Shown: in pieces, positions 48,588-54,370 of the stretch | Numbering within the stretch: position 1 is the first letter of the stretch | Layout: every line of letters starts with the position of its first letter | From: a virus | Lineage: Duplodnaviria > Caudoviricetes | Virus record (IMG/VR): IMGVR_UViG_3300037067_007160 | Location: 32,001 to 96,000 of that record | Strand: one strand, 5' to 3' | Length of the DNA stretch: 64,000 nucleotides | The notes under the pieces: generated by a model | The model's database searches: none | The model's input: only the letters and a program-made list of their open reading frames with translations | What the model was told of the DNA's origin: nothing | Program-made: the position numbers and the translations under genes

Positions 48588-50441
48588 ATGAATCCATCTA
48601 ACAAACTCTTGTCGGATATCGTTGCTTTTAGAACGTACGCTCGATATATATCTAATCTATCAAGACGAGAATCATTGGAAGAAACGATTAACCGAAATAT
48701 GGTAATGCATCTTGAGAGATTTCCAGCTCTCTCAAAAGATATTATCAAAGCATATGGGTTGGTTCATGACAAACTTGTTATGCCTTCAATGAGAGCCCTT
48801 CAGTTCTCTGGCGAGGCTGTAAGAAGGAATAACCTTCGTCTCTTTAACTGCTCCTATCTCTCTATAGATGATCCACACGCTTTCGCTGAAGTCCTCTACC
48901 TCCTTCTATCAGGTACAGGAGTCGGCTACTCCGTTCAGAAGAAACACATTAACAAGCTTCCTATCGTTGGTAGTCCGAGAGAGGATAACATATTCAAGAT
49001 TCATGACTCCATAGAAGGTTGGGCACAGGCTATCCACGTTCTTGCTGAAGCCTACTTCTATAGTAGAATTCGCCCAATATTTGACTACTCACAGATAAGG
49101 GTACGAGGGGCCAGACTATCTACTACAGGAGCAAAGGCTCCTGGGCCAGAACCACTTAAACATATGCTAGAAACAGTTGAGAAGAAGTTTCAGAATGCAA
49201 GAGGAAGAAGGTTACGTCCAATAGAGGTTCATGATATCGCATGTATTGTTAGTGACTGCGTCCTCGCTGGCGGAGTACGTAGATCTGCCATGATTAGCCT
49301 ATTTGATAGGGATGATAAGGAGATGCTTACCTGTAAGAGTGGTGAGTGGTACATACAACATCCATATAGAGCTAGGGCTAATAATAGTGTTGTCCTTCCA
49401 AGGAAAGAGGTTACAAAAGAAGAGTTTGAGCATATCTTCAAGATAACAGAGGAGAGTGGGGCCGGCGAACCTGGCTTCACATGGACAAGCAATTCTGACA
49501 TGGGCGTCAATCCATGTTCAGAGATATCTCTCTTTTCCAATCAACTCTGTAACCTCACTAGCATTAATCAAAGGGGAATTGAAGATAAGGCCGACTTCCT
49601 TAGAAGAGTAAATGCTGCTACCCTTATTGGTACTCTTCAAGCTGCTTATACTGACTTTCCATTTGTTAGACCAGTATGGAAAGAAGTGACTGAGAGAGAA
49701 GCTCTCCTTGGAGTTTCATTCACGGGCATTGCTGATAGTGGTAGCAAAATTACTAATGATTGGCTTGAAGAAGGAGCCATCTATGCGAAAGAAGTTAATG
49801 AACGGATAGCGAAGAAGATTGGTATAAATCTTGCAGCACGAATAACCTGTGTTAAACCAGAAGGAACACTATCAACTATTGTTGGTTCATCTTCTGGAAT
49901 TCATGCACGACATGCGCCATATTACATACGAAGAATTCGTATGAGTAAGAACGATGATCTAGCTCATTATCTATCTAATACAATACCCGATCTTGTAGAA
50001 GATGATATTGCAGCAGCCAATACTGTAGTCGTGTCAATACCGCAAGAAGCACCAGATGGTGCTATTGTAAGGAATCAGGAAACTGCTCTAGACCTCCTTG
50101 ATCGTGTAATGCGCTACAATAATAACTGGGTAAAACCAGGACATAGAAGTGGAGATAATCTTCACAATGTGAGTTGTACTGTGTCTGTGAAACCTGATGA
50201 GTGGAACAAGGTTGGTGAGTTCATGTGGAAACACAGGGCCAATTACACAGGTATCTCCCTTCTACCATATGATGGAGGAGAATATAAACAAATGCCTTTC
50301 GAAGAATGTACAAAAGATAGGTATGATGAACTGATGTCGCATATAAAGACCATTAACTTAAGGGAAATACATGAGAATGATGATATGACGGAATTTACTA
50401 AGACTGTAGCATGTTCTGGTGGAAAATGTGAACTTATATAA
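48588..50441 (+). CDS. nrdJ: class II (adenosylcobalamin-dependent) ribonucleotide reductase
   Basis: RTYAR, MPSMR, FNC, GGVRRSA, NPCSEI, LCNL, TCVKPEGT, C-terminal CSGGKC. Confidence 0.93.
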   Translation: MNPSNKLLSDIVAFRTYARYISNLSRRESLEETINRNMVMHLERFPALSKDIIKAYGLVHDKLVMPSMRALQFSGEAVRRNNLRLFNCSYLSIDDPHAFAEVLYLLLSGTGVGYSVQKKHINKLPIVGSPREDNIFKIHDSIEGWAQAIHVLAEAYFYSRIRPIFDYSQIRVRGARLSTTGAKAPGPEPLKHMLETVEKKFQNARGRRLRPIEVHDIACIVSDCVLAGGVRRSAMISLFDRDDKEMLTCKSGEWYIQHPYRARANNSVVLPRKEVTKEEFEHIFKITEESGAGEPGFTWTSNSDMGVNPCSEISLFSNQLCNLTSINQRGIEDKADFLRRVNAATLIGTLQAAYTDFPFVRPVWKEVTEREALLGVSFTGIADSGSKITNDWLEEGAIYAKEVNERIAKKIGINLAARITCVKPEGTLSTIVGSSSGIHARHAPYYIRRIRMSKNDDLAHYLSNTIPDLVEDDIAAANTVVVSIPQEAPDGAIVRNQETALDLLDRVMRYNNNWVKPGHRSGDNLHNVSCTVSVKPDEWNKVGEFMWKHRANYTGISLLPYDGGEYKQMPFEECTKDRYDELMSHIKTINLREIHENDDMTEFTKTVACSGGKCELI

Positions 50442-50922
50442 GAGAAGGAAAACGGGAGGAAGGACAAAATATCTTGGATATTGTGTTGATTGTAAGATAG
50501 AAAAGACACAAAGATGGTATAGACTTAAAGAGAACAAATCAATGGCAAGATGCCAACATTGTTATGGAAAACTTAGACTTTGCAATAAACAAGTAAGAGA
50601 AATAAGAAATAAGCAAAGAAAAGAATGGGGAGAGAAATATGCGTACAGAGTATTTCTCAATCTAGTAAAATATAAGAAGTACACAACAGATATAACAAAT
50701 GAGGAATATCTAACCTATATAAAACAACCATGTCATTATTGTGGAGGTAGCCTTCCAAATAGCGGCATTCGTCTTGATAGGGTAGATAATACGATAGGAT
50801 ATCTAAACTCAAATGTCGTTCCTTGTTGTAAAACTTGTAATATTGCAAAGAACAACAAGTCAGTAGAAGAGTTTAAGGTATGGGTTATCAATGTCTACAA
50901 TAAATTTCAAATAGTTAAATGA
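50419..50922 (+). CDS. free-standing HNH endonuclease
   Basis: CHYCG..LDRVDNTIGY..SNVVPCCKTCNIAK; AT-rich; overlaps nrdJ stop. Confidence 0.8.
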   Translation: MENVNLYKRRKTGGRTKYLGYCVDCKIEKTQRWYRLKENKSMARCQHCYGKLRLCNKQVREIRNKQRKEWGEKYAYRVFLNLVKYKKYTTDITNEEYLTYIKQPCHYCGGSLPNSGIRLDRVDNTIGYLNSNVVPCCKTCNIAKNNKSVEEFKVWVINVYNKFQIVK

Positions 50923-50934
50923 TATAATTCCAAC

Positions 50935-51624
50935 ATGGAACCAAACTACTCACTTCAAAGGCCAGATTATGCCCTTCAGACGGGGTGGACACCAATACCA
51001 CATGCTGTAGTACGGGTCTCCAACAATACCATATCTATTCTCTGTAATAGATCTACATACATATCAGTTGGTGATAAGATACTTCTAACACAGACGACTG
51101 ATAAGTACTTCGAAGTTACCAACATATCAGTTGTTGGAAATACAACAACAATAACTCTTAGTAGTCCTGAGGGTAGTGTTGTGAGCACTGACACAATCTA
51201 CTATTCCTACTTCTCCAAGAATGATAGACCCTATGGTTATACTTCGGTGGGAAGGTTCAAGGCAGGAAGTTTCTTGACACCACATGGTGCTGATCCTGAT
51301 GTCCAAAGTGTGACAGGTATTGGATTTAAGCCAAAGGCTATTGTATTTCTTGGCGTTTGTGGCCAGACTCCATCTGCTGAAAATGGTATAGGAGTTGGTA
51401 TAACAGATGGAACTTCCTCCTTCTCCATTGTAGGATATACAGTAGATGGTGGAGCCTCTGGTGGAGAAGGACCAACTGCGAATACGGTTTTCCAACAGAT
51501 AGATACTGTAGGCGCCATAACTATGAGCGCCAATCTAACTTCTATGGATGTTGATGGATTCACCCTTCTATATAGTTCAAAAGCAGTGAATCCATATGTC
51601 ATTGCCTATCTTGCTATGGGATAA
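50935..51624 (+). CDS. virion/fibre-like protein, probably leaderless
   Basis: VTGIGFKPKAI..DVDGFTL..YLAMG fibre-tip-like motifs; ATG 6 nt after TATAAT. Confidence 0.55.
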   Translation: MEPNYSLQRPDYALQTGWTPIPHAVVRVSNNTISILCNRSTYISVGDKILLTQTTDKYFEVTNISVVGNTTTITLSSPEGSVVSTDTIYYSYFSKNDRPYGYTSVGRFKAGSFLTPHGADPDVQSVTGIGFKPKAIVFLGVCGQTPSAENGIGVGITDGTSSFSIVGYTVDGGASGGEGPTANTVFQQIDTVGAITMSANLTSMDVDGFTLLYSSKAVNPYVIAYLAMG

Positions 51625-51695
51625 TAGTGATATAATAATAGTAATATACATGTGGCGCCTCTGTCTATGACACGCGCAAACTCCACATGTTTTAT

Positions 51696-51762
51696 GGGCC
51701 TTGGTGAGGACGCATAGAGCGTACCTGACACCTTAAGATAGGTTTTACTCCTATCTGGTCCA
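51696..51762 (+). ncRNA. tRNA-like RNA (acceptor plus T arm, no canonical D or anticodon arm)
   Basis: GGGCC/GGTCC-A acceptor with G3:U70, AGATAGG-TTTTACT-CCTATCT arm, one long internal hairpin; alternative 3' end with CCA at 52294-52313. Confidence 0.6.
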
Positions 51763-51819
51763 AACTAGCAAAGATAGCCACCTCCACGTGGTGCTAGTTG
51801 GATAACGCTAAGAGCTATC
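51763..51819 (+). ncRNA. minimal HDV-like (theta-type) self-cleaving ribozyme
   Basis: P1 AACTAGC/GCTAGTT, P2 GATAGC/GCTATC, P3 ACC/GGT, L3 TCCACGT, P1.1 CC/GG, J4/2 GCTAA, no P4. Confidence 0.85.
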
Positions 51820-51847
51820 ACACAGGACGAAGGTCCAGGAGGATACA

Positions 51848-52294
51848 ATGGGAAATAATTCAAATTCCAAGAAAGATAGACTATTGGGAATACCACACGG
51901 AACTGCTAATGGACAGTTACGAAAAATGTTGGTCTTTGACATGGCTAAACGTCTTGGATTACTAGACTGCTATAGATGTAAAGAACCTATTCTTAAGATA
52001 AGAGATTTTTCTATAGAACATAAAATACCATGGCAGTCATCTGAAGAACCAAAAGTAGCATTCTTTGACTTAGAAAACATTGCTTTCTCACACTTAAGTT
52101 GCAATAGTGGTGCGGGCAGTGGAAGTGGAAGAACCATTATATATCCTGAAGGGCAGAAGTGGTGTGGTATATGTAAATCGTTCAAATCACTCACAGAGTT
52201 TCCTGCCTGTGCAAAACGAGATAGAAGTAGAAACTGTAAAGAATGTCATAGCAACTTAATGGCAAAATGGAGAGAAAGAACGGGAAGACACTAA
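51848..52294 (+). CDS. HNH homing endonuclease (paralog of 56434-56838)
   Basis: GTA..LRK..CYRC..DFSIEHKIPW..NIAFSHLSCN; RBS AGGAGG. Confidence 0.8.
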   Translation: MGNNSNSKKDRLLGIPHGTANGQLRKMLVFDMAKRLGLLDCYRCKEPILKIRDFSIEHKIPWQSSEEPKVAFFDLENIAFSHLSCNSGAGSGSGRTIIYPEGQKWCGICKSFKSLTEFPACAKRDRSRNCKECHSNLMAKWRERTGRH

Positions 52295-52313
52295 CTCCCA
52301 TTCTGGTCCACCA
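52294..52313 (+). pseudogene. displaced 3' end of the tRNA-like RNA
   Basis: ACTCCCATTCTGGTCCACCA vs upstream ACTCCTATCTGGTCCAAA. Confidence 0.65.
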
Positions 52314-52384
52314 ATTTCGCTGACTGTGCGGGGCAGTCCATCTACATAAGATCCCCGTTGTCCCTTGCGAAAGGGGAGGTCATA

Positions 52385-53191
52385 ATGTACAAGAACAATT
52401 ATGTTCTAACCATTAGAAGGAATAACCAAACCCTACCAGAAACAAATGGTGAGTGTCTACTCCCATTCCAATCAGAATACGAAGTGAGGCTCAGGAACAA
52501 GAATAGGAAACGATCCCTGGTCGACCTCTACATTGATGGCCGACTTGTCACTAAGGGCGGTCTAATTGTTGATGCCAATAGTTATGTCGACCTTGAGAGG
52601 TTCATCGATAGTGACCTTACTAGAGGTGATCGGTTTAAGTTTGTTCCGATCAGTGATGACAGGATCGACAAGGGTGAATCACAGAATGGCCTAGTAGAGG
52701 CTAGATTCTATGATGAGAGAGAACGAAAGTTTGAGATTCTTAACACTAGTTGGTCCCATACTTGCCACTATCAAAACTGTTGGCAATGTGGTACATGGCA
52801 TTGTTCATGTCAATACTGTCCTATTCGAAACTATACAATCAACTCTGGTGGAACAAGTGGCAACGCCATCTATAGTTCAAATGTGGCAATATATAATAGC
52901 ACCGACATTAGTCAATGTTCAACGGCACATCCCACCAGTAGCGTCCTACGTGGTGAAGCATCGGCTGGAGGAACTGTTCGTGGTGGCACCTCTAGCCAGA
53001 GGTTTACAGCATCCTACCTAGATGTTGATAAGGAAAAGCCCACAGTTATTAGGCTTAAGCTCCTTGGTGTTCCTCCACAAGGACATGAATGCAAGGGAAA
53101 GATCATCTCCTACTGCACTCGATGTGGCCAAGAGACTGGTCAGGAAGATAGGTACTGTTCCAAGTGCGGAAAAGATCTAACCCGCAGATAA
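52385..53191 (+). CDS. hypothetical protein with C-terminal double zinc ribbon
   Basis: LPFQSEYEVRLRN..DLERF..NGLVEARF; CTRCG..YCSKCG. Confidence 0.7.
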   Translation: MYKNNYVLTIRRNNQTLPETNGECLLPFQSEYEVRLRNKNRKRSLVDLYIDGRLVTKGGLIVDANSYVDLERFIDSDLTRGDRFKFVPISDDRIDKGESQNGLVEARFYDERERKFEILNTSWSHTCHYQNCWQCGTWHCSCQYCPIRNYTINSGGTSGNAIYSSNVAIYNSTDISQCSTAHPTSSVLRGEASAGGTVRGGTSSQRFTASYLDVDKEKPTVIRLKLLGVPPQGHECKGKIISYCTRCGQETGQEDRYCSKCGKDLTRR

Positions 53192-53547
53192 ACTTCATAG
53201 AGACTGGTCTATCGGTACTCATAGAGGGAGCTGGATCAATTTCCGGCTTCCTTTATGGGCCGATAAATGGTATGATGCTGGAAGATGGGCGGGTAGCGCT
53301 ACAGATGTTCATCAAGACCCCTACCCACTTTCCACTTGGAAATACAGATGCTAACTACAAGATAAGGTTTGTGGCGGCCAATCTGGCTACAGAAGCTGTG
53401 CAAATTGGTAGATATAGGGATGAGGGTTCGATGTACTTCGTTAGGGTAGCTCTGACGACAGATGAGATTCAACAGGTAAGTTCAGCCCTTAGCTACAATA
53501 AGCTAAGGGAAGGTATGGGCCAAGTGATAAAGATGTTGACAAATTGA
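53164..53547 (+). CDS. hypothetical protein
   Basis: ORF fills gap; start uncertain. Confidence 0.5.
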   Translation: MRKRSNPQINFIETGLSVLIEGAGSISGFLYGPINGMMLEDGRVALQMFIKTPTHFPLGNTDANYKIRFVAANLATEAVQIGRYRDEGSMYFVRVALTTDEIQQVSSALSYNKLREGMGQVIKMLTN

Positions 53548-53564
53548 AAAATCTGTGATATAAT
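53536..53564 (+). promoter_or_regulatory. consensus promoter heading the stable-RNA operon
   Basis: TTGACA-17 nt-TATAAT with extended -10 TG. Confidence 0.85.
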
Positions 53565-53570
53565 ATATAC

Positions 53571-53696
53571 ATGCCAAAGAAGCTAATGTCATGCGTCAGA
53601 CAACTGAAGAGAAAAGGAAACTCTAATCCTTGGGCAATTTGTATTGCGGCCACAGGGCAACACCCTGAGCCGAGGCGGCACAAGAAAAGACGGTAG
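53571..53696 (+). CDS. leaderless small basic protein (41 aa)
   Basis: MPKKLMSCVRQLKRKGNSNPWAICIAATG..; ATG 6 nt after TATAAT. Confidence 0.55.
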   Translation: MPKKLMSCVRQLKRKGNSNPWAICIAATGQHPEPRRHKKRR

Positions 53697-53728
53697 ACAA
53701 CCTCCAGTTGCAACAGACGACTCAGCAC

Positions 53729-53777
53729 CAAGGGTGGGGTTCTACTAAAAAGGAATCTCACCCTTGCTCTTTGACAA
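53729..53777 (+). promoter_or_regulatory. hairpin plus boxA-like antitermination element
   Basis: Long stem CAAGGGTGGGGTTC/GAATCTCACCCTTG overlapping TGCTCTTTGACAA (rrn boxA is TGCTCTTTAACA). Confidence 0.65.
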
Positions 53778-53780
53778 TAT

Positions 53781-54217
53781 GGGCCTGAATTAGGTTTGAC
53801 GGGGCTCACCGAGTGAAAGCGGCAAGCAGGGCCGGCACAACGTCCCTTGAAAAACTTGTGCAAAGCCTAAATGGCAAAGTAAAAGAAGAGTCCAGCCTGC
53901 TCTCTCAGGCTATGGCGATTATTGACGCAGCGTTCGAAAGAGCGCCGGAGTTCGTTCTCGCCTAACCCGCAAGGGTTGTCTCGATCCTAACTAGATTCGT
54001 TCACCTTGTAAGGGATCGGGTAACACTAGGTGAATGGCGGTCTCTATCAGCGCCTTATCTGGTAGATGGTGGAGGAGCCTAGAAGATTTACCAAATGATT
54101 TGGTAAATCTTAGTTCGCTCCCTGTAGTAAACCAAGCCATTGGTTAATTGGCTAAGCTTGTAGATGCGATCATAAAGGAGTTTCGGACGCGGGCTGCGAT
54201 GCCCGCCAGGTCCACCA
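53781..54217 (+). ncRNA. ssrA: tmRNA
   Basis: GGGCCTG/CAGGTCC-ACCA with G3:U70, GG..GAC D-loop region, tag ORF 53873-53965 GKVKEESSLLSQAMAIIDAAFERAPEFVLA*. Confidence 0.93.
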
Positions 54218-54224
54218 ATATAAG

Positions 54225-54298
54225 GCCGGTTTCGTATAAAGGAATTATACCTCACTCGTAATGAGGAGATCCTGGATCGTTACCAGGAACCGGCTCCA
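54225..54298 (+). tRNA. tRNA-Thr(CGT)
   Basis: Cloverleaf, CCTCA-CT CGT AA-TGAGG, CCA. Confidence 0.9.
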
Positions 54299-54370
54299 GT
54301 GTTGTAGGGAATCCGTGGATCCTCTCGCATAGAGCGAGTGCTGGTAAGACCGGCGGTGAAACCACGGGCT

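What the first reader, a model, noticed from the sequence alone, without database searches (positions are those of the whole stretch)
51696..51762. Anticodon-less tRNA mimic with alanine identity elements
Seen: a 5-bp acceptor (GGGCC/GGTCC, G3:U70, A73, same first five pairs as this phage's tmRNA and tRNA-Ala) stacked on a 7-bp arm with a 7-nt loop. That gives the 12-bp tRNA top half in a 5/7 split. The D and anticodon arms are replaced by one bulged hairpin capped by CGC-ATAGA-GCG. It has a TGATATAAT upstream (51628) and a CCA-bearing alternative end at 52313. Known: AlaRS needs only G3:U70 and A73. Inference: an alanylatable decoy or adaptor RNA (for EF-Tu, tRNA-targeting toxins, or non-ribosomal Ala transfer) that tRNA scanners would probably miss.
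Basis: partly seen in the sequence, partly recalled or inferred. Interest (0 to 1): 0.7.

Follow-up and report, generated by a model that had tools for sequence, protein, structure and literature searches.

The report
Anticodon-less tRNA-Ala-like RNA gene, ribozyme-capped
A phage carries a small gene for a tRNA-shaped RNA that keeps the alanine-type acceptor end but has no anticodon, and in this genome a selfish DNA-cutting-enzyme cassette has landed on its 3' end together with a self-cleaving ribozyme that would cut the RNA free at exactly the right base.

Summary
Window 51696-51762 folds as described: a 5-bp G3:U70/A73 acceptor stacked on a 7-bp T arm, with an 11-bp bulged hairpin in place of the D and anticodon arms. 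tRNA scanners and Rfam miss it.

It is a discrete gene. Near-identical sister phages carry it intact with an encoded CCA and the phage's usual tRNA trailer. In this window a 548-bp cassette (51763-52310) sits between A73 and C74. The cassette holds a minimal HDV-like "theta" ribozyme (51763-51819), an HNH endonuclease gene and a decayed copy of the RNA's 3' end. The predicted cut is 51762|51763. Both alleles occur in independent metagenomes.

The "alternative CCA end" at 52313 is the displaced original end.

Its closest relatives are phage tRNA-Ala genes, and they match in the top half only. More distant relatives of the phage lack the gene, and I found no covarying homolog and no RNA data.

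Best reading: a tRNA-Ala-derived, non-decoding tRNA-like RNA matured like a tRNA and plausibly alanylated. Its role is unknown, and a young pseudogene remains a serious rival.

Other first-reader notes of this scan describe the same ribozyme, HNH gene and displaced end on this same DNA. I found no look-alike on other DNA in the scan.

The parts
51626..51636 (+). Extended -10 promoter motif AGTGATATAAT (TATAAT 51631-36)
   Evidence: 4 exact copies, all on the + strand, against 0.1 expected in shuffles. The same TGATATAAT stands at the same place in relative L144.
51648..51695 (+). 5' leader hairpin (ACATGTGG...CCACATGT) followed by UUUUAU. U at -1 before the predicted RNase P site 51695|51696.
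   Evidence: Fold -14.5 kcal/mol, z -2.8. It is absent, together with the tRNA-like gene, from relatives L144 and L146.
51696..51762 (+). 67-nt anticodon-less tRNA-like RNA: 5-bp acceptor (G3:U70), 11-bp bulged hairpin with AUAGA loop, 7-bp T arm with UUUUACU loop, discriminator A73
   Evidence: The intact allele with CCA is L142:4762-4831. The best non-self matches of its covariance model are phage tRNA-Ala genes, top half only.
51746..51746 (+). The only SNP against the empty-site sister within 5.3 kb: T here, G in L142 (fourth base of the T loop; TTTGACT in the intact allele)
   Evidence: window and L142 are identical from 48765 to 54096 except for this base and the cassette.
51763..51819 (+). 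Minimal HDV-like (theta) ribozyme. P1 51763-69/51793-99, P2 51773-78/51814-19, P3 51780-82/51790-92, L3 UCCACGU, P1.1 GG 51800-01, catalytic C 51808, no P4. Predicted scission 51762|51763.
   Evidence: Rfam RF02682 gives 26.2 bits, E 0.022, below its gathering score of 44. Covariance model R1, built without this sequence, gives 55.3 bits, E 1e-8, full length. Across 61 family members P1 is 100% paired and 6 of 7 pairs show double changes.
51848..52294 (+). HNH homing-endonuclease gene (148 aa)
   Evidence: Pfam HNH 24.8 bits against a cut-off of 21.4. PHROG 23251, E 4e-22. Homologs lie just downstream of tRNA genes in other phages.
52277..52310 (+). Cassette-borne decayed copy of the T arm, acceptor 3' strand and A73. 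Core repeat is ACTCCCATTCTGGTCCA, 52294-52310. The HNH stop codon TAA 52292-94 lies in its loop.
   Evidence: 15 of 17 bases match 51747-51762. Its hairpin is not better than shuffles (z -1.1).
52311..52342 (+). Displaced resident CCA (52311-13), trailer ATTT, and a 5'-UTR hairpin that is conserved and covaries in relatives
   Evidence: In L142 this sequence follows A73 directly. The hairpin is conserved with compensatory changes in L144 and L146.

Best explanation
Window 51696-51762 is a genuine small RNA gene derived from a phage tRNA-Ala gene. It keeps the top half of a tRNA. That top half is a 12-bp acceptor/T stack, here split 5/7, with G3:U70, A73 and a U54...A58-type T loop. The D and anticodon arms are replaced by one 11-bp hairpin, so the RNA cannot decode.

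It is transcribed from a recurring phage promoter with a short hairpin leader. It is matured like the phage's tRNAs. RNase P cleavage at 51695|51696 is inferred. The 3' CCA is encoded in the intact allele.

In this window a mobile cassette has inserted between A73 and C74. The cassette holds a theta ribozyme, an HNH endonuclease gene and a decayed copy of the RNA's 3' end. The ribozyme would cut exactly after A73, releasing the 67-nt RNA with a 2',3'-cyclic phosphate and starting the HNH mRNA. After end healing and CCA addition by host enzymes (inferred), the RNA would again be a CCA-ended minihelix-type substrate for AlaRS (inferred from G3:U70/A73).

My best guess for its role is a non-decoding alanine acceptor or tRNA decoy. 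That role is the least supported step.

Intact allele:
- It has an encoded CCA plus an ATTT trailer.
- 29 of the 33 tRNA calls in the window also end in an encoded CCA, followed by similar (G/A)ATTT-type trailers.

Allele comparison:
- Window and L142 are identical over 5.3 kb apart from the cassette and one T-loop SNP.
- An independent landfill contig joins 51753 to 52302, skipping 548 nt. Another contig carries the cassette form.
- L143 is also the cassette form.

Ribozyme:
- It starts at the base after A73.
- In 41 of 80 unique family members the same ribozyme follows an ARAGORN tRNA at its discriminator.
- This agrees with PMC10879173.

Cassette type:
- The HNH family lives directly after tRNA genes.
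- The same layout occurs at 8 other ribozyme loci: tRNA, then ribozyme, then endonuclease ORF, then a repeat of the tRNA 3' end.
- So this cassette type normally enters working tRNA genes and keeps their 3' end intact.

Descent from tRNA-Ala:
- Model R2 best matches tRNA-Ala genes in acceptor and T arm only.
- 34 nt are 88% identical to an unannotated tRNA-Ala of Stenotrophomonas phage DLP_6.
- The 5' 12 nt and the 3' 15 nt nearly equal the phage's own tRNA-Ala.

Promoter:
Against: - No RNA evidence exists. Only DNA contigs and two uninformative short contigs were laid.
- No covarying homolog was found.
- Relatives at 66-68% identity of the flanking protein have the same promoter and 5' UTR but lack the leader hairpin and the gene. 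The gene is therefore young or dispensable.
- All copies seen are near-identical, so conservation says nothing about selection.
- The third helix leaves the stack after 5 bp instead of 7. This may disturb AlaRS, EF-Tu or RNase P.
- Ribozyme cleavage leaves a cyclic phosphate that blocks CCA addition until it is removed. No CCA-adding enzyme was found in the 130-kb (about half) contig.
- The cassette allele changes the purine at T-loop position 57 to U.
Confidence: 0.5

Rival explanations
1. It is a young tRNA-Ala pseudogene or scar left by the heavy endonuclease-driven turnover of tRNA genes in this phage. It has no function of its own and matters only as a landing site that still looks like a tRNA 3' end to the HNH cassette.
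For: - It is lineage-specific: absent from L144 and L146.
- No covariation is available.
- The top half resembles tRNA-Ala.
- The region is full of endonuclease genes. The ORF 50419-50922 is also absent from relatives.
- Earlier notes of the scan report broken and replaced tRNA genes in this contig.
- Homing cassettes need only a DNA target, not a working RNA.
Against: - All three helices are perfect, and each is individually better than shuffles (z -3.96, -2.85, whole -3.74). The known relic (copy 2) is not (z -1.1).
- The replacement hairpin has the length of a stacked D plus anticodon arm.
- CCA, trailer, -1 U and promoter are all intact.
- A random decay product of a cloverleaf is not expected to refold into a clean 23-bp three-way junction.
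Confidence: 0.3
2. It is a cis-acting processing or punctuation element. The tRNA-shaped module at the start of the transcript recruits RNase P and 3' trimming to separate the leader from the downstream mRNA (268-aa and 127-aa ORFs). The small RNA itself is a by-product.
For: - It lies between a promoter and a conserved 5'-UTR hairpin and RBS.
- No terminator-like site is called on the + strand in the stretch scanned (51300-54300), which includes the 72 nt between the CCA and the next ORF.
- tRNA-like punctuation is established elsewhere (mitochondria, mascRNA); this is from my own knowledge.
Against: - Relatives express the same ORFs from the same promoter without it.
- An encoded CCA and alanine identity elements are not needed for punctuation.
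Confidence: 0.1
3. It is a stripped-down tmRNA tRNA-like domain, without an mRNA part, that binds SmpB and EF-Tu and modulates host or phage trans-translation.
For: - It has the same first five acceptor pairs as the phage tmRNA 2 kb downstream.
- The acceptor/T stack plus one long helix is the general plan of a tmRNA tRNA-like domain (my own knowledge; see PMC3985003, listed).
Against: - There is no Rfam tmRNA signal even at E<=10.
- The T arm and the junction are unlike those of the phage tmRNA.
- The linker on the 5' side is 2 nt, not a D-loop analogue.
- No SmpB is found in the contig.
- The nearest sequence relatives are tRNA-Ala genes, not tmRNA.
Confidence: 0.05

Closest known systems
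Phage tRNA-Ala(UGC) genes, especially the class with a 4-nt D loop and a UUURACU T loop (DLP_6 KU682439.2:109320-109392, unannotated; metagenome loci L148, L152-L168)
   Same: GGGC.../...GGUCCACCA acceptor with G3:U70 and A73, T loop UUUGACU in the intact allele, encoded CCA, A/T-rich trailer. These are the best covariance-model and BLAST matches.
   Different: Those genes have a 7/5 stack, a D arm and a normal anticodon arm with UGC. Here the stack is 5/7, and the D and anticodon arms are replaced by one hairpin with a 5-nt loop.
tRNA + theta (minimal HDV-like) ribozyme units of phages (Kienbeck et al. 2024, PMC10879173)
   Same: The ribozyme core is the same, and it starts at the base after the discriminator. 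No CCA is encoded in the ribozyme-bearing allele.
   Different: The upstream RNA is not a tRNA by any scanner. The paper's pipeline would therefore have filed this ribozyme as 'isolated'. The paper does not mention endonucleases. Here the ribozyme is shown to be part of a present/absent HNH cassette.
tmRNA tRNA-like domain
   Same: Alanine-type acceptor, no anticodon, top half plus one long helix.
   Different: There is no mRNA-like domain, no pseudoknots, no D-loop analogue and no Rfam match.
Minihelix-Ala / microhelix-Ala substrates of AlaRS (Francklyn and Schimmel; from my own knowledge, reviewed in PMC9976931)
   Same: 12-bp acceptor/T stack with G3:U70 and A73, which is sufficient for alanylation in vitro.
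   Different: This is a natural gene with a third helix leaving the stack after bp 5. Charging was not tested.
Non-decoding tRNA-like small RNAs: mascRNA, MHV68 viral tRNA-like RNAs, T4 stable RNAs C and D in the T4 tRNA cluster (from my own knowledge)
   Same: They are made by tRNA-processing enzymes, are CCA-ended and have no decoding role.
   Different: Those are cloverleaf-like or much longer. None has a 5/7 stack with alanine identity, and none is paired with a self-cleaving ribozyme.
tRNAs with non-7/5 acceptor branches (8/4, 9/3; Mukai et al. 2017, PMC5389517)
   Same: The 12-bp branch is kept while the split point moves. They are also found in phages.
   Different: Those shift the other way and keep D and anticodon arms.
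Free-standing homing endonucleases in phage tRNA clusters (T4 SegB, T5 HNH enzymes), and twin-ribozyme introns in which the GIR1 ribozyme shapes the endonuclease mRNA 5' end (PMC2219692)
   Same: A selfish nuclease gene sits inside or next to an RNA gene, and a ribozyme limits the damage and forms the nuclease mRNA end.
   Different: There is no intron and no splicing. The cassette replaces the 3' end of the RNA gene and cuts itself off with an HDV-like ribozyme.

Membership tests
tRNA (Rfam RF00005 / ARAGORN) | Recognised by tRNA covariance model or scanner | tested here: not met
   There is no ARAGORN call. There is no Rfam tRNA match at the gathering threshold or at E<=10.
tRNA (Rfam RF00005 / ARAGORN) | 7-nt anticodon loop on a 5-bp stem, D arm, 7-bp acceptor with 5-bp T stem | tested here: not met
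   The loop has 5 nt (AUAGA) on an 11-bp bulged hairpin. There is no D arm. The split is 5/7.
tRNA (Rfam RF00005 / ARAGORN) | T loop with U54, U55 and A58; discriminator; 3' CCA | tested here: met
   The T loop is UUUGACU in the intact allele and UUUUACU here. A73 is present. CCA is encoded in L142.
AlaRS substrate (alanine identity) | G3:U70 in the acceptor helix, A73 | tested here: met
   Read directly from the sequence. The first five pairs are the same as in the phage tRNA-Ala and tmRNA.
AlaRS substrate (alanine identity) | Actual aminoacylation with alanine | not testable with these tools
   This needs in vitro charging or acid-gel Northern analysis.
tmRNA (RF00023) | tRNA-like domain plus mRNA-like domain with tag reading frame and pseudoknots | tested here: not met
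   The RNA is 67 nt with no reading frame. There is no Rfam match at E<=10. The real tmRNA is at 53781-54217.
Theta / minimal HDV-like ribozyme (adjacent part 51763-51819) | Nested double pseudoknot P1/P1.1/P2/P3 with the conserved L3 and a catalytic C in J4/2, and a cleavage site at its own 5' end | tested here: met
   All helices can be drawn. Model R1, built without this sequence, gives 55.3 bits, E 1e-8. P1 covaries in 61 members. C51808 aligns with the invariant C. The Rfam RF02682 score of 26.2 is below its gathering score of 44.
Theta / minimal HDV-like ribozyme (adjacent part 51763-51819) | Self-scission activity | not testable with these tools
   This needs in vitro transcription and a C51808U control.
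Homing-endonuclease cassette | Nuclease gene present or absent at the same site in otherwise near-identical genomes | tested here: met
   Empty site: L142, a run X3 contig, and the spacing in SRR22315509. Filled site: the window, L143 and a run X2 contig.
Homing-endonuclease cassette | Endonuclease cleaves the empty allele | not testable with these tools
   This needs a cleavage assay or a co-infection cross.

The most novel reading that the evidence does not exclude
The phage makes a dedicated alanine-accepting tRNA 'top half' that never decodes. It would be charged by host AlaRS and used off the ribosomal decoding path, for example as a decoy for acceptor-end-targeting defence toxins, as an EF-Tu or AlaRS sink, or as an alanine donor. 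It would be valuable enough that the selfish cassette which invaded it carries a ribozyme and a replacement 3' end to keep it working.
Probability: 0.2. Interest if true: 0.85.

Novelty: new variant of a known kind. Interest (0 to 1): 0.64.

Why it matters
If the RNA is made and charged, it would be a natural minihelix-type alanine acceptor: a tRNA reduced to what AlaRS, RNase P, the CCA enzyme and EF-Tu read. That would open the question of what a virus does with such a molecule.

Independently of that, the locus gives a concrete job to a theta ribozyme that automated pipelines would call 'isolated'. Natural filled and empty alleles show that the ribozyme travels with a homing endonuclease and lets it sit on the 3' end of an RNA gene without an intron.

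The same layout at eight other ribozyme loci suggests this is a general way for theta ribozymes to spread next to tRNAs. I found no paper in the held library that says so.

Tried and rejected
Searches for homologs of the RNA:
- Megablast of the locus against GenBank phages gave nothing.
- An exact 18-mer scan of viral contigs gave only a chance hit in a coding region of an unrelated high-GC phage.
- An architecture pattern (GGGCC...TTTNACT N7 GGTCCACCA) was run on metagenome and viral contigs. It returned mostly 7/5 tRNA-Ala(UGC) genes and no 5/7 homolog.
- Model R2 over 100 loci gave no homolog of the hairpin.
- Whole records of L140 and L120 gave nothing. The records behind L144, L142 and L169 are not held.
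- Blastn of the 140-nt insert against the phage's own genome found no paralog.

Other searches that led nowhere:
- Loci syntenic through the RNR gene in viral contigs carry neither the element nor a ribozyme.
- There is no theta ribozyme next to any HNH homolog and none elsewhere in the 130-kb contig.
- Neighbouring proteins (229, 268 and 127 aa) belong to no informative family. They are also conserved in relatives that lack the RNA, so they are not specific partners.

Expression:
- No RNA holder is listed for this stretch. Two runs labelled RNA-Seq gave only one short contig each (51469-51714 and 52380-52555). These say nothing about ends or expression.

Readings I considered and dropped:
- A 7-nt anticodon loop CAUAGAG (anticodon UAG, A33). 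It requires breaking a C-G pair and lacks U33.
- A group I intron between 51696 and 52313. The ribozyme match and the empty-site allele explain the interval instead.

Full report
**1. Observation**

Window 51696-51762 reads GGGCC-UU-[30-nt hairpin]-UUA-AGAUAGG-UUUUACU-CCUAUCU-GGUCC-A.
- Each helix stands on its own. The inner hairpin has z -3.96 and the T arm z -2.85.
- A descriptor asks for a 5-bp stem closing directly on a 7-bp stem with a TTxxAxx loop. It finds this one place in the window and in the whole 130-kb contig. Shuffled windows give 0.07 hits. The same descriptor in 7/5 form finds 21 of the ordinary tRNAs.
- ARAGORN tRNAs in the window and Rfam calls a tmRNA at 53781-54217. Neither calls this element, even at E<=10.
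- The acceptor's first five pairs equal those of the phage tmRNA and tRNA-Ala.

**2. What follows the element**

The permissive Rfam scan gave a weak HDV-ribozyme match that starts at 51763, the base after A73 (RF02682, 26.2 bits, below its gathering score).
- All parts of a minimal HDV-like nested double pseudoknot can be drawn. P1 is 51763-69/51793-99, P2 is 51773-78/51814-19, P3 is ACC/GGU, L3 is UCCACGU, P1.1 is GG 51800-01, and the catalytic C is 51808. There is no P4.
- I scanned viral contigs for the P3-L3-P3 core. 80 unique sequences have a perfect 7-bp P1 and a P2, with P1 and P2 different in nearly every one.
- In 41 of the 80, an ARAGORN tRNA ends at the cleavage site. This agrees with the published theta ribozymes (PMC10879173).
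- A covariance model built from 19 of these, without the window's sequence, scores the window at 55.3 bits, E about 1e-8, full length from 51763.
- On 61 distinct members, P1 is 100% paired and six of seven pairs show double changes.
- It is the only such ribozyme in the 130-kb contig. None of the 33 ordinary tRNAs has one.

**3. The empty site**

The exact 229-aa protein encoded upstream (50935-51624) is found on other contigs.
- In L142 (NCBI GCA_043956575.1) the gene reads GGGCC...GGTCC-A-CCA, followed by ATTTCGCTGAC. That is the sequence which in the window follows 52313.
- Window and L142 are identical from 48765 to 54096 except for two things. One is a 548-bp block, 51763-52310. The other is one base, 51746 (G in L142, T here), in the T loop 17 nt from the junction.
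- A landfill-metagenome contig joins 51753 to 52302, the same deletion with 9 ambiguous bases. Another landfill run and ENA contig L143 carry the filled form. Both alleles therefore segregate in nature.
- The intact gene ends in an encoded CCA plus ATTT, like 29 of the 33 tRNA calls in the window.

**4. The cassette**

It consists of the ribozyme, an HNH endonuclease gene at 51848-52294 (Pfam and PHROG), and a diverged copy of the RNA's T arm and acceptor 3' strand at 52277-52310.
- The core of that copy is ACTCCCATTCTGGTCCA, 15 of 17 bases like 51747-51762. The HNH stop codon lies in its loop.
- That copy folds no better than shuffles (z -1.1). It differs from the sister's intact gene although the flanks are identical, so it came in with the cassette.
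- The insertion could be placed equally after A73 or in the T loop, because of the repeat.
- I cannot exclude that the empty allele arose by deletion between the 9-nt repeats. Homing is the commoner route.
- Homologs of the HNH protein (about 50% identity) sit directly after tRNA genes (Met, Pro, Lys, Ser, Ile) in other phages. One runs into a tRNA-Ala with the same acceptor. None has a ribozyme.
- Conversely, at eight other theta-ribozyme loci the last 13-20 nt of the upstream tRNA are repeated 212-1078 nt downstream of the cleavage site. About 0.14 such repeats are expected by chance over the 80 loci.
- Where the ORFs between are recognisable they look like GIY-YIG endonuclease genes, mostly broken, and an ORF often ends in or next to the repeat. 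At other theta loci, full GIY-YIG/NUMOD genes follow the ribozyme (L101 and L113).
- This is therefore a recurrent cassette type. It enters the 3' end of a tRNA gene and keeps that end usable by self-cleavage. I found no paper in the held library that links theta ribozymes with endonucleases.

**5. Where the RNA comes from**

A covariance model of the 67-mer finds, apart from itself, phage tRNA-Ala genes, aligned only in acceptor and T arm.
- The best match is an unannotated tRNA-Ala(UGC) of Stenotrophomonas phage DLP_6 (25 bits). It has a 4-nt D loop and the same UUUGACU T loop as the intact allele.
- The pattern scans returned more tRNA-Ala genes of that class.
- The 5' twelve bases and the 3' fifteen bases nearly equal the phage's own tRNA-Ala.
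- Two more distant relatives of the phage (66-68% identity in the 229-aa protein) have the same TGATATAAT promoter and the same covarying 5'-UTR hairpin. They lack both the leader hairpin and the tRNA-like gene, about 120 nt in all.
- The gene is therefore a lineage-specific derivative of a tRNA-Ala gene. No covariation test of its own helices is possible with the copies at hand.

**6. How it most likely works**

Shown:
- The gene anatomy.
- The promoter motif (4 copies against 0.1 expected).
- The encoded CCA in the intact allele.
- The ribozyme's membership in its family and its register.
- The present/absent cassette.

Inferred:
- Transcription from 51626-36.
- RNase P cleavage after U-1.
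- 3' maturation to CCA in the intact allele.
- In this allele, ribozyme scission after A73, then removal of the cyclic phosphate and CCA addition by host enzymes. No CCA enzyme was found in the half-genome contig.
- Alanylation, because G3:U70 and A73 in a 12-bp stack suffice for AlaRS in vitro (established knowledge).

Not known: what the charged or uncharged RNA does. I give about 0.5 to 'processed, non-decoding tRNA-Ala-like RNA, probably an alanine acceptor'. I give 0.3 to 'young pseudogene that merely serves as a landing site', 0.1 to a cis-processing element and 0.05 to a tmRNA-domain mimic.

**7. Novelty**

tRNA-like non-decoding RNAs and theta ribozymes are both known kinds. The new points are:
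- a phage gene for a 5/7 top-half RNA with alanine identity and no anticodon;
- its pairing with a theta ribozyme that published pipelines would have called isolated;
- natural alleles showing that the ribozyme is cargo of a homing-endonuclease cassette.

Other first-reader notes of this scan (e1-5844599, e1-5844590) describe the ribozyme, the HNH gene and the displaced end on this same DNA. I reached the ribozyme independently and tested it. Notes on neighbouring stretches (e1-5844598, e1-5844596) report nuclease cassettes replacing tRNAs and the existence of sister phages, which prompted the exact-protein look-up.

Noticed in passing
L006, L034, L043, L045, L056, L065, L085, L109 (viral contigs; ribozyme coordinates): At eight other theta-ribozyme loci the last 13-20 nt of the upstream tRNA (3' part of the T loop through the discriminator) are repeated 212-1078 nt downstream of the cleavage site. 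Where the ORFs between are recognisable they look like GIY-YIG genes, mostly broken, and an ORF often ends in or next to the repeat. This suggests that theta ribozymes commonly travel in endonuclease cassettes that replace tRNA 3' ends. About 0.14 such repeats are expected by chance.
   Followed up: partly
L101:11455-12093 and L113:3608-4249: Full GIY-YIG + NUMOD1 homing-endonuclease genes start 28 and 65 nt after a theta ribozyme that follows tRNA-Gln and tRNA-Met (Pfam).
   Followed up: partly
L007:6110-6258: A complete tRNA-Asn(GTT) gene sits inside the anticodon loop of a tRNA-Lys(TTT)-like gene, whose two halves still pair. A theta ribozyme follows the outer gene.
   Followed up: no
L175:1456-1528 = KU682439.2:109320-109392 (Stenotrophomonas phage DLP_6): An unannotated tRNA-Ala(UGC) with a 4-nt D loop, no G18/G19, and a UUUGACU T loop. 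The same class is common in metagenome loci L148 and L152-L168. It seems to escape standard annotation.
   Followed up: partly
L011, L017, L060, L072, L082, L115 (upstream of their ribozymes): Theta ribozymes that start 0-2 nt after a plain 9-14-bp hairpin instead of a tRNA. This suggests a wider use of the ribozyme for making hairpin-protected RNA 3' ends.
   Followed up: no
window 52315-52342; L144:5684-5712; L146:988-1016: A 5'-UTR hairpin before the 268-aa zinc-ribbon ORF is conserved in three phage lineages with compensatory changes (GACTG...CAGTC against GGCCG...CGGCC).
   Followed up: no
window 50419-50922: An HNH/endonuclease-VII-like ORF lies between the RNR gene and the 229-aa gene. 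It is present in the window and L142 but absent from relatives L144 and the SRR18595300 contig. This is another present/absent nuclease gene.
   Followed up: no
window 53536-53564 and 53766-53780: A perfect TTGACA-17-TATAAT promoter with TG lies ahead of the tmRNA. The motif CTTTGACAATAT stands directly before both the tmRNA and tRNA-Ala.
   Followed up: no
window 54097-54148: Eleven clustered differences between the window and L142 inside the tmRNA gene, in an otherwise identical 5-kb stretch.
   Followed up: no
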